From Escherichia coli (GTDB taxonomy: Bacteria; Pseudomonadota; Gammaproteobacteria; Enterobacterales; Enterobacteriaceae): a stretch of 64,000 nucleotides of DNA. The translations under genes and the position numbers were made by a program. Below the pieces are notes generated by a model, which worked only from the letters and a program-made list of their open reading frames with translations, had not been told where the DNA came from and did not search any database. The DNA lies in assembly GCF_003334785.1 (NCBI RefSeq), contig NZ_QOWV01000015.1; one strand, 5' to 3'. Numbering within the stretch: the stretch's first letter is position 1; each line of letters starts with the position of its first letter. Of this stretch, positions 16,580-18,544 are shown piece by piece.

Positions 16580-18544
16580 GTGAGCATGGATATAAGCGAT
16601 TTTTATCAGACATTTTTTGATGAAGCGGACGAACTGTTGGCTGACATGGAGCAGCATCTGCTGGTTTTGCAGCCGGAAGCGCCAGATGCCGAACAATTGA
16701 ATGCCATCTTTCGGGCTGCCCACTCGATCAAAGGAGGGGCAGGAACTTTTGGCTTCAGCGTTTTGCAGGAAACCACGCATCTGATGGAAAACCTGCTCGA
16801 TGAAGCCAGACGAGGTGAGATGCAACTCAACACCGACATTATCAATCTGTTTTTGGAAACGAAGGACATCATGCAAGAACAGCTCGACGCTTATAAACAG
16901 TCGCAAGAGCCGGATGCCGCCAGCTTCGATTATATCTGCCAGGCCTTGCGTCAACTGGCATTAGAAGCGAAAGGCGAAACGCCATCCGCAGTGACCCGAT
17001 TAAGTGTGGTTGCCAAAAGTGAACCGCAAGATGAGCAGAATCGCAGTCAGTCGCCGCGACGAATTATCCTTTCGCGCCTGAAGGCCGGGGAAGTCGACCT
17101 GCTGGAAGAAGAACTGGGACATCTGACAACGTTAACTGACGTGGTGAAAGGGGCGGATTCGCTCTCGGCAATATTACCGGGCGACATCGCCGAAGATGAC
17201 ATCACAGCGGTACTCTGTTTTGTGATTGAAGCCGATCAGATTACCTTTGAAACAGTAGAAGTCTCGCCAAAAATATCCACCCCATCAGTGCTTAAACTGG
17301 CAGCCGAACAAGCGCCAACCGGCCGCGTGGAGCGGGAAAAAACGACGCGCAGCAATGAATCCACCAGCATCCGTGTAGCGGTAGAAAAGGTTGATCAATT
17401 AATTAACCTCGTCGGCGAGCTGGTTATCACCCAGTCCATGCTTGCCCAGCGTTCCAGCGAACTGGACCCGGTTAATCATGGTGATTTGATAACCAGCATG
17501 GGGCAGTTACAACGTAACGCCCGTGATTTGCAGGAATCAGTGATGTCGATTCGCATGATGCCGATGGAATATGTTTTTAGTCGCTATCCCCGGCTGGTGC
17601 GTGATCTGGCGGGAAAACTCGGCAAGCAGGTAGAACTGACGCTGGTGGGCAGTTCCACTGAACTCGACAAGAGCCTGATAGAACGCATTATCGACCCGCT
17701 GACCCACCTGGTACGCAATAGCCTCGATCATGGTATTGAACTGCCAGAAAAACGGCTCGCCGCAGGTAAAAACAGCGTCGGAAATTTAATTCTGTCTGCC
17801 GAACATCAGGGCGGCAACATTTGCATTGAAGTGACCGACGATGGTGCGGGGCTAAACCGTGAGCGAATTCTGGCAAAAGCGGCCTTGCAAGGTTTGACCG
17901 TCAGCGAAAACATGAGCGACGACGAAGTTGCAATGCTGATATTTGCACCTGGCTTCTCCACGGCGGAGCAGGTCACCGACGTCTCCGGGCGTGGCGTTGG
18001 CATGGACGTCGTTAAACGTAATATCCAGGAGATGGGCGGTCATGTCGAAATCCAGTCGAAGCAGGGTACTGGCACTACGATCCGCATTTTACTGCCGCTG
18101 ACGCTGGCCATCCTCGACGGCATGTCCGTACGCGTTGCGGATGAAGTTTTCATTCTGCCGCTGAATGCTGTTATGGAATCACTGCAACCCCGTGAAGCCG
18201 ATCTCCATCCACTGGCCGGCGGCGAGCGGGTGCTGGAAGTGCGGGGTGAATATCTGCCCATCGTCGAACTGTGGAAAGTGTTCAACGTCGCGGGCGCGAA
18301 AACCGAAGCTACCCAGGGAATTGTGGTGATCTTACAAAGTGGCGGTCGCCGCTACGCCTTGCTGGTGGATCAATTAATTGGTCAACACCAGGTTGTGGTT
18401 AAAAACCTTGAAAGTAACTATCGCAAAGTCCCCGGCATTTCTGCTGCGACCATTCTTGGCGACGGCAGCGTGGCACTGATTGTTGATGTCTCCGCCTTGC
18501 AGGCGATAAACCGCGAACAACGTATGGCGAACACCGCCGCCTGA
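16580..18544 (+). CDS. cheA: Chemotaxis histidine kinase CheA
   Basis: GTG start giving [20 protein letters not shown] (654 aa); phosphorylation site in [12 protein letters not shown]; internal ATG at 16871 corresponds to the CheA-short start. Confidence 0.96.

What the first reader, a model, noticed from the sequence alone, without database searches (positions are those of the whole stretch)
16580..16875. Internal in-frame start for a CheA-short isoform
An ATG at 16871 (codon 98 of cheA) corresponds to the known second translation start producing CheA-short, which lacks the phosphorylation site. This is one gene with two products, not an annotation ambiguity.
Basis: established knowledge. 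Interest (0 to 1): 0.15.

Follow-up and report, generated by a model that had tools for sequence, protein, structure and literature searches.

The report
Known CheA-short internal translation start
The ATG at 16871 is codon 98 of E. coli cheA, the textbook second in-frame start that makes the short kinase isoform CheA-S, so the finding is correct and already well known.

Summary
The observation and its interpretation both hold. The window carries E. coli motA-motB-cheA-cheW-tar-tap. cheA runs 16580-18544 on the + strand, starts with GTG and encodes 654 aa. ATG 16871-16873 is exactly codon 98 in frame. An AAGGA Shine-Dalgarno-like pentamer sits at 16862-16866, four bases upstream. The His48 codon (16721-16723) and almost the whole Hpt domain lie before the ATG, so the 557-aa product lacks the phosphorylation site.

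This one sequence does not single out Met98. Its SD-like match ranks only 8th of 50 in-frame start-type codons, and Met81 has a better one. Comparison does single it out:
- ATG98 is invariant in 80 Enterobacterales species.
- Distant CheA P1 domains mostly have Leu at that position.
- The strongest synonymous-site constraint in the whole gene lies at codons 88-101 (6.5 bits against 13.2 expected; 0 of 20,000 permutations).
- Nothing comparable precedes Met81.

The AAGGA is found almost only in the E. coli sequences. Most relatives have AAAGAUAUU-AUG in an A/U-rich stretch predicted to be weakly folded.

Published work states that CheA-S initiates at ATG-98 and that M98L abolishes it.

Verdict: already known, low interest.

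The parts
16580..18544 (+). cheA coding sequence for CheA-L (654 aa, GTG start, stop included)
   Evidence: Pfam domains: Hpt 8-100, CheY-binding 161-223, H-kinase_dim 261-324, HATPase_c 372-508, CheW 514-640.
16569..16582 (+). start(L): GAGGTGA SD-like motif overlapping the motB stop (TGA 16573-16575), then GTG 16580-16582
   Evidence: (duplex -7.2 kcal/mol). GTG at codon 1 is present in 82/82 sequences.
16721..16723 (+). His48 codon (CAC), the autophosphorylation site, present only in CheA-L
   Evidence: His is invariant in 82/82 sequences. That His48 is the phospho-site is established knowledge.
16841..16882 (+). Conserved nucleotide footprint of the internal translation initiation region (codons 88-101, about -30 to +12 around ATG98)
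   Evidence: Lowest synonymous entropy in the whole gene. Amino-acid-matched permutation: 6.49 against 13.2 +/- 0.84 bits, 0 of 20,000. Predicted low opening cost: median 8.5th percentile across 81 sequences.
16862..16866 (+). AAGGA Shine-Dalgarno-like motif for start(S), 4-nt spacer to the ATG
   Evidence: Nearly lineage-specific: present in the E. coli sequences and about 4 other species; the consensus elsewhere is AAAGAT.
16871..16873 (+). start(S): ATG codon 98, the initiation codon of CheA-S
   Evidence: ATG in 82/82 Enterobacterales sequences. Literature.
16871..18544 (+). CheA-S coding sequence (557 aa, 60.5 kDa); it lacks the Hpt four-helix bundle and His48 and keeps P2-P5

Best explanation
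ATG 16871 is start(S) of E. coli cheA. Ribosomes initiate at two in-frame sites on the same mRNA.

- GTG 16580 gives CheA-L: 654 aa, the full P1-P5 histidine kinase.
- ATG 16871 (codon 98) gives CheA-S: 557 aa.

In E. coli the internal initiation region consists of an AAGGA SD-like motif 4 nt upstream of the ATG, inside an A/U-rich stretch that is predicted to be weakly folded.

CheA-S lacks residues 1-97. It therefore has no Hpt four-helix bundle and no His48, and it cannot be autophosphorylated. It keeps the CheY-binding, dimerisation, ATPase and CheW-like domains. According to the literature, it dimerises with itself or with CheA-L, binds the phosphatase CheZ and recruits it to the receptor cluster, and it is not essential for chemotaxis.

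Shown here: the coordinates, the reading frame, the SD-like motif, the domain content of the two products, and the evolutionary constraint on the site. Taken from the literature: that both proteins are made, that initiation is at codon 98, and the CheZ role.
For: Identity and context: 100% match to annotated E. coli cheA, between motB and cheW.

Frame and codon number.

Domains: Hpt spans residues 8-100, so Met98 lies at the end of the bundle. The P1 domain matches solved E. coli and Salmonella CheA P1 structures.

SD-like motif: AAGGA, -5.4 kcal/mol.

Opening cost: 9.96 kcal/mol for the -20..+12 region, the lowest of the internal in-frame ATGs tested and the 12th percentile of the gene.

Conservation:
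- ATG98 is present in 82/82 sequences from 80 Enterobacterales species, including Citrobacter, Enterobacter, Erwinia, Pantoea, Serratia, Yersinia, Pectobacterium, Dickeya, Hafnia, Photorhabdus and Xenorhabdus.
- Twelve of the 13 lowest 9-codon synonymous-entropy windows of the gene lie between codons 82 and 101; the other is codons 1-9, at start(L).
- The permutation z-score is about -8.
- Position 98 is Met in 9/9 close cluster representatives. Among 100 representatives below 70% identity it is Leu in 84 and Met in 4. The Met is therefore derived and not required by the fold, which fits its use as a start codon.
- Within E. coli, 5372 of 5379 genomes are identical over 16841-16900.

Literature:
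- PMC7696710: initiation at ATG-98; M98L removes CheA-S and delocalises CheZ.
- PMC1447658 and PMC8563088: CheA-S lacks the first 97 residues.
- PMC2716512: CheA is expressed from two initiation codons, with an endogenous RBS for CheA-S.
- PMC3579733: the two forms exist in enterobacteria.
Against: From this sequence alone the SD is only moderate, and the spacing is short (4 nt after AAGGA). Met81 has a stronger and better-spaced SD-like motif. The AAGGA is absent from most Enterobacterales that keep ATG98: the median anti-SD duplex is -3.3 kcal/mol. An SD is therefore not the conserved determinant. No protein or ribosome-profiling data for this strain could be examined. The primary papers (Kofoid & Parkinson 1991; Sanatinia et al. 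1995; McNamara & Wolfe 1997) are not held in the library, so they are cited only through later papers.
Confidence: 0.96

Rival explanations
1. Met98 is an ordinary internal methionine. The AAGGA upstream is a chance match, and no significant initiation occurs there.
For: SD-like strength is unremarkable: 8th of 50 in-frame start-type codons. The gene has 18 internal in-frame ATGs.
Against: The gene-wide minimum of synonymous variation lies exactly upstream of this codon. ATG is invariant in 80 species, while distant homologues have Leu. The literature reports initiation at ATG-98 and loss of CheA-S in M98L.
Confidence: 0.01
2. The short isoform starts at a different codon, for example Met81 (ATG 16820, preceded by GAGGTGAG), or arises by proteolysis of CheA-L.
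For: Met81 has the strongest internal SD-like match (-7.2 kcal/mol) with about 4 nt of spacing after GAGG. Met81 is present in 78/82 sequences.
Against: There is no synonymous constraint upstream of Met81: codons 72-80 give 10.7 against 9.1 expected bits, p = 0.98. Its predicted opening cost is average, at the median 59th percentile. Codon 81 is TTG, ATA or ATC in four sequences. The literature places the start at codon 98, with 97 residues missing.
Confidence: 0.02
3. The conserved nucleotide element at 16841-16882 serves another function that only happens to coincide with Met98. Candidates are an RNA hairpin, an internal promoter or an antisense feature.
For: A 9-bp stem (16847-16855 with 16874-16882) can form, with the SD and AUG in its 18-nt loop. 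It is pairable in 96% of cells across 81 sequences.
Against: No compensatory changes were seen, and the shuffles do equally well. The loop codons are just as constrained as the stem codons. There is no sigma-70-like promoter in 16400-17100 and no Rfam family there. The 120-nt region folds no better than shuffles, z = +0.63. A hairpin presenting the start codon would in any case be part of the initiation region, not a rival to it.
Confidence: 0.03

Closest known systems
E. coli K-12 cheA tandem translation starts, start(L)/start(S), giving CheA-L and CheA-S (Smith & Parkinson 1980; Kofoid & Parkinson 1991; cited in PMC7696710)
   Same: Same gene, same operon and same codon 98 ATG. The 60-nt sequence around it is identical to K-12 records. 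The product is the same: 557 aa lacking His48.
   Different: Nothing of substance. This strain's CheA differs from my recollection of the K-12 protein at a few residues far from the start (for example around residue 153). That comparison is from memory and was not tested.
CheA-L/CheA-S co-expression in other Enterobacteriaceae (McNamara & Wolfe 1997, cited in PMC3579733 and PMC8745638)
   Same: ATG98 and the surrounding roughly 45-nt sequence are conserved across 80 Enterobacterales species.
   Different: Most relatives have AAAGATATT-ATG, with no AAGGA. The E. coli SD-like motif comes from synonymous changes (AAA to AAG, GAT to GAC) that are seen almost only in the E. coli sequences.
Other bacterial in-frame internal starts that give N-terminal proteoforms (infB IF2-alpha/beta, clpB, ccmM, ssaQ), reviewed in PMC11005335
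   Same: One gene gives two products through an internal in-frame initiation site, and the short form has a distinct function.
   Different: Different genes and functions. Here the truncation removes a phosphotransfer domain and exposes a CheZ-binding surface (literature).

Membership tests
Enterobacterial cheA start(S) / CheA-S isoform | The gene is the cheA orthologue in the motAB-cheAW operon and has P1-P5 architecture. | tested here: met
   100% match to annotated E. coli cheA with motA, motB, cheW, tar and tap around it. Pfam finds Hpt, CheY-binding, H-kinase_dim, HATPase_c and CheW.
Enterobacterial cheA start(S) / CheA-S isoform | An in-frame ATG at codon 98, downstream of His48. | tested here: met
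   ATG at 16871-16873 = 16580 + 291. The His48 codon is at 16721-16723.
Enterobacterial cheA start(S) / CheA-S isoform | A ribosome-binding determinant upstream of the internal ATG. | tested here: met
   AAGGA at 16862-16866, -5.4 kcal/mol against the anti-SD, with a short 4-nt spacer. Low predicted opening cost. The determinant is moderate, not strong.
Enterobacterial cheA start(S) / CheA-S isoform | Sequence identity of the start(S) region with the strains in which CheA-S was demonstrated (K-12 lineage). | tested here: met
   16841-16900 is identical in 5372 of 5379 complete E. coli genomes, including K-12 and JM109 records.
Enterobacterial cheA start(S) / CheA-S isoform | Selection on the site as a nucleotide element, not only as an amino acid. 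| tested here: met
   Synonymous entropy minimum of the gene at codons 88-101, 0 of 20,000 permutations. Met98 is derived from Leu.
Enterobacterial cheA start(S) / CheA-S isoform | Two polypeptides (about 71 and 60 kDa) are made in vivo, and the smaller is abolished by mutating codon 98. | not testable with these tools
   Reported in the literature for K-12 derivatives (PMC7696710; PMC2716512). Not measured for this strain.
Enterobacterial cheA start(S) / CheA-S isoform | CheA-S binds CheZ and localises it to receptor clusters. | not testable with these tools
   Literature only.

The most novel reading that the evidence does not exclude
Across Enterobacterales, the conserved determinant of CheA-S initiation may not be a Shine-Dalgarno sequence. 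It may instead be a roughly 45-nt element, CUGUUUUUGGAAACNAAAGAUAUU-AUG-CAGGAACAG. This element is A/U-rich and could form a weak stem-loop that displays the AUG in its loop. On this reading it sets the CheA-L:CheA-S ratio, and E. coli secondarily acquired an AAGGA by synonymous changes. This would be an SD-poor internal initiation module maintained for well over 100 million years inside a coding sequence.
Probability: 0.3. Interest if true: 0.3.

Novelty: already known. Interest (0 to 1): 0.08.

Why it matters
The site is a classic example of one bacterial gene giving two proteins by alternative initiation, and automated annotation omits the short form: RefSeq lists a single cheA CDS here. 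It matters for chemotaxis biology, because CheA-S tethers the CheZ phosphatase at the receptor array. It is also a useful positive control for methods that search for internal starts. The analysis here shows that SD strength alone would have picked the wrong methionine (Met81), whereas synonymous-site constraint picks the right one. Nothing here changes current understanding.

Tried and rejected
1. SD strength as a discriminator. Rejected: Met98 ranks 8th of 50, and Met81 scores better.

2. Met81 as an alternative start. Rejected: no synonymous constraint and average accessibility.

3. A conserved hairpin around the start (16847-16855 with 16874-16882). Pairable, but no covariation, so inconclusive.

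4. An internal sigma-70 promoter or a known RNA family at the site. None was found.

5. Reading the primary papers (PMID 2002011, PMID 9045846, PMC207748, PMC176941, PMC2737944, PMC151485, PMC178899). None is held, so claims rest on later open-access papers that cite them.

6. Naming the taxa of the Leu98 and Met98 boundary representatives through the look-up of encoding contigs. Only unnamed metagenome contigs came back. One Leu98 relative sits in a motB-cheY-cheA arrangement unlike the enteric operon.

7. Looking for Ribo-RET evidence for cheA start(S) in the library. Only review-style mentions were found.

Full report
**What is at the coordinates.**
Window 16400-18600 matches annotated E. 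coli chromosomes at up to 100% identity. The features under the match are motB, cheA and cheW. In the best match the order is flhDC-motA-motB-cheA-cheW-tar-tap-cheR, and cheA is a single CDS.

In the window, motB ends with TGA at 16573-16575. cheA begins with GTG at 16580 and runs to the stop at 18542-18544, which makes 654 codons. Codon 98 begins at 16580 + 291 = 16871, and the bases there are ATG.

The His48 codon (CAC, 16721-16723) lies upstream of the ATG. Pfam places the Hpt domain at residues 8-100, followed by the CheY-binding, dimerisation, HATPase_c and CheW-like domains. A product starting at Met98 would be 557 aa and 60.5 kDa, against 654 aa and 71.4 kDa for the full protein. It loses the phosphotransfer bundle and the phospho-accepting histidine and keeps everything else.

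An AAGGA lies at 16862-16866, separated from the ATG by CATC. Its predicted duplex with the 16S 3' end is -5.4 kcal/mol. So an RBS-like sequence is present.

The test is weak, however. Among the 50 in-frame ATG/GTG/TTG codons of cheA this site ranks only 8th. Met81 (ATG 16820) is preceded by GAGGTGAG at -7.2 kcal/mol, as strong as the SD of the authentic first start.

Predicted mRNA opening cost for -20..+12 is 9.96 kcal/mol at Met98. That is the lowest of the internal in-frame ATGs tested and the 12th percentile of all codon positions. Met81 scores 13.6 kcal/mol.

From this one sequence the site is plausible but not distinguishable from chance.

**Comparative evidence.**
One scan of species-representative genomes returned cheA loci from 80 Enterobacterales species at 62-95% protein identity. 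They include Citrobacter, Enterobacter, Kluyvera, Erwinia, Pantoea, Serratia, Yersinia, Rahnella, Pectobacterium, Dickeya, Brenneria, Hafnia, Photorhabdus and Xenorhabdus.
- In a codon-threaded alignment, codon 98 is ATG in 82/82 sequences. Codon 81 is Met in 78/82.
- Per-column synonymous codon entropy, in 9-codon windows over the whole gene, is lowest at codons 89-97: 0.316 of the maximum, against a gene median of 0.70.
- Twelve of the 13 lowest windows fall between codons 82 and 101. The other is codons 1-9, at the CheA-L start.
- An amino-acid-matched permutation controls for codon bias. Codons 88-101 give 6.49 bits observed against 13.2 +/- 0.84 expected, with 0 of 20,000 permutations as low.
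- Codons 72-80, upstream of Met81, show no constraint: 10.7 against 9.1 bits, p = 0.98.

The constrained stretch covers about -30 to +12 around ATG98, roughly the size of an initiation region.

**Is Met98 needed by the protein?**
A full HMMER search of 1.84 billion cluster representatives with the P1 domain was followed by pairwise alignment.
- Position 98 is Met in 9/9 close representatives (70% identity or more).
- Among 100 more distant CheA P1 domains it is Leu in 84, Ile or Val in 12, and Met in 4.

Met is therefore a derived state of the enteric lineage, not a structural requirement. This agrees with the experimental use of M98L to remove CheA-S while leaving CheA-L functional.

**What is conserved is not the SD.**
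The enterobacterial consensus is AAC CUG UUU UUG GAA ACN AAA GAU AUU AUG CAG GAA CAG. The AAGGA of E. coli arises from synonymous AAA to AAG and GAU to GAC changes. It is found in the E. coli sequences and only a few other species.

Across the 81 sequences the median anti-SD duplex is -3.3 kcal/mol, and E. coli is the strongest at -5.4. The region is 63% A+U. Its predicted opening cost sits at the median 8.5th percentile of each gene, and it falls in the lowest decile in 53% of species. Met81 sits at the 59th percentile.

Within E. coli, 5372 of 5379 genomes are identical over 16841-16900.

**A possible hairpin.**
The minimum-free-energy fold pairs CUGUUUUUG (16847-16855) with CAAGAACAG (16874-16882). 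This puts the SD and AUG in an 18-nt loop. Across species 96% of cells are pairable, but there is no double-sided compensatory change and shuffles do as well. The 120-nt region is no more stable than shuffled sequence, z = +0.63. I treat the stem as unproven.

No sigma-70-like promoter and no Rfam family lies at the site.

**Literature.**
The primary papers are not held in the library. Open-access papers that cite them say the following.
[quoted passage not shown] It is not essential for chemotaxis, is eliminated by M98L, and is required for polar CheZ localisation (PMC7696710).
- CheA-S lacks the first 97 residues (PMC8563088).
- CheA-S lacks the histidine phosphorylation site, forms homodimers and heterodimers, and binds CheZ (PMC1447658).
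- CheA is expressed from two initiation codons, with an endogenous RBS for CheA-S (PMC2716512).
- Both forms exist in enterobacteria (PMC3579733).
- Recent reviews use it as a standard example of an N-terminal proteoform or nested isoform.

**Verdict.**
It is a known feature of a model gene.
- Synonymous-site constraint identifies start(S) unambiguously and rejects the better-looking Met81.
- Met98 is a derived enteric character.
- The AAGGA is almost confined to the E. coli sequences, on top of a conserved A/U-rich initiation region.

Interest is low.

Noticed in passing
window 16809-16822: Met81 (ATG 16820) is preceded by GAGGTGAG. This SD-like motif is stronger and better spaced than the one before the real start(S). 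There is no synonymous constraint upstream of it, and codon 81 is not ATG in 4 of 82 sequences. It is a decoy that SD-based internal-start predictors would prefer.
   Followed up: yes
window 16847-16855 with 16874-16882: A potential 9-bp A/U-rich stem would place AAGGA and AUG98 in an 18-nt loop. It is 96% pairable across 81 Enterobacterales sequences but shows no compensatory changes, so it cannot be told apart from plain sequence conservation.
   Followed up: partly
window 16862-16870, compared with L003-L081: The E. coli start(S) SD (AAG GAC ATC) differs from the enterobacterial consensus (AAA GAT ATT) by three synonymous changes in consecutive codons. Two of them create AAGGA. These changes are essentially fixed in E. 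coli (5372 of 5379 genomes).
   Followed up: partly
window 19088-19165 (-): A full-length Rfam match to the C0465 sRNA (RF00116, 111.6 bits, E = 1e-21) lies on the minus strand in the cheW-tar intergenic region.
   Followed up: no
window 16580-16588: Both GTG (codon 1) and ATG (codon 3) are invariant in 82/82 sequences, and they share the same upstream GAGGTGA. Codons 1-9 are the only other region of cheA with strong synonymous constraint. Which of the two codons initiates CheA-L was not tested here; RefSeq uses the GTG.
   Followed up: no
L083 (Logan SRR21472757 contig), 1-1777: A CheA P1 relative at 69% identity with Leu at position 98 sits in a motB-cheY-cheA arrangement, unlike the enteric motB-cheA arrangement. 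This suggests the Met98/Leu98 boundary follows operon type and taxon. The contig carries no taxonomy.
   Followed up: no
P0092, P0094: Two database cluster representatives begin at the residue that aligns with Met69 of CheA. These are probably gene-caller truncations on contig fragments, not evidence of another start.
   Followed up: no
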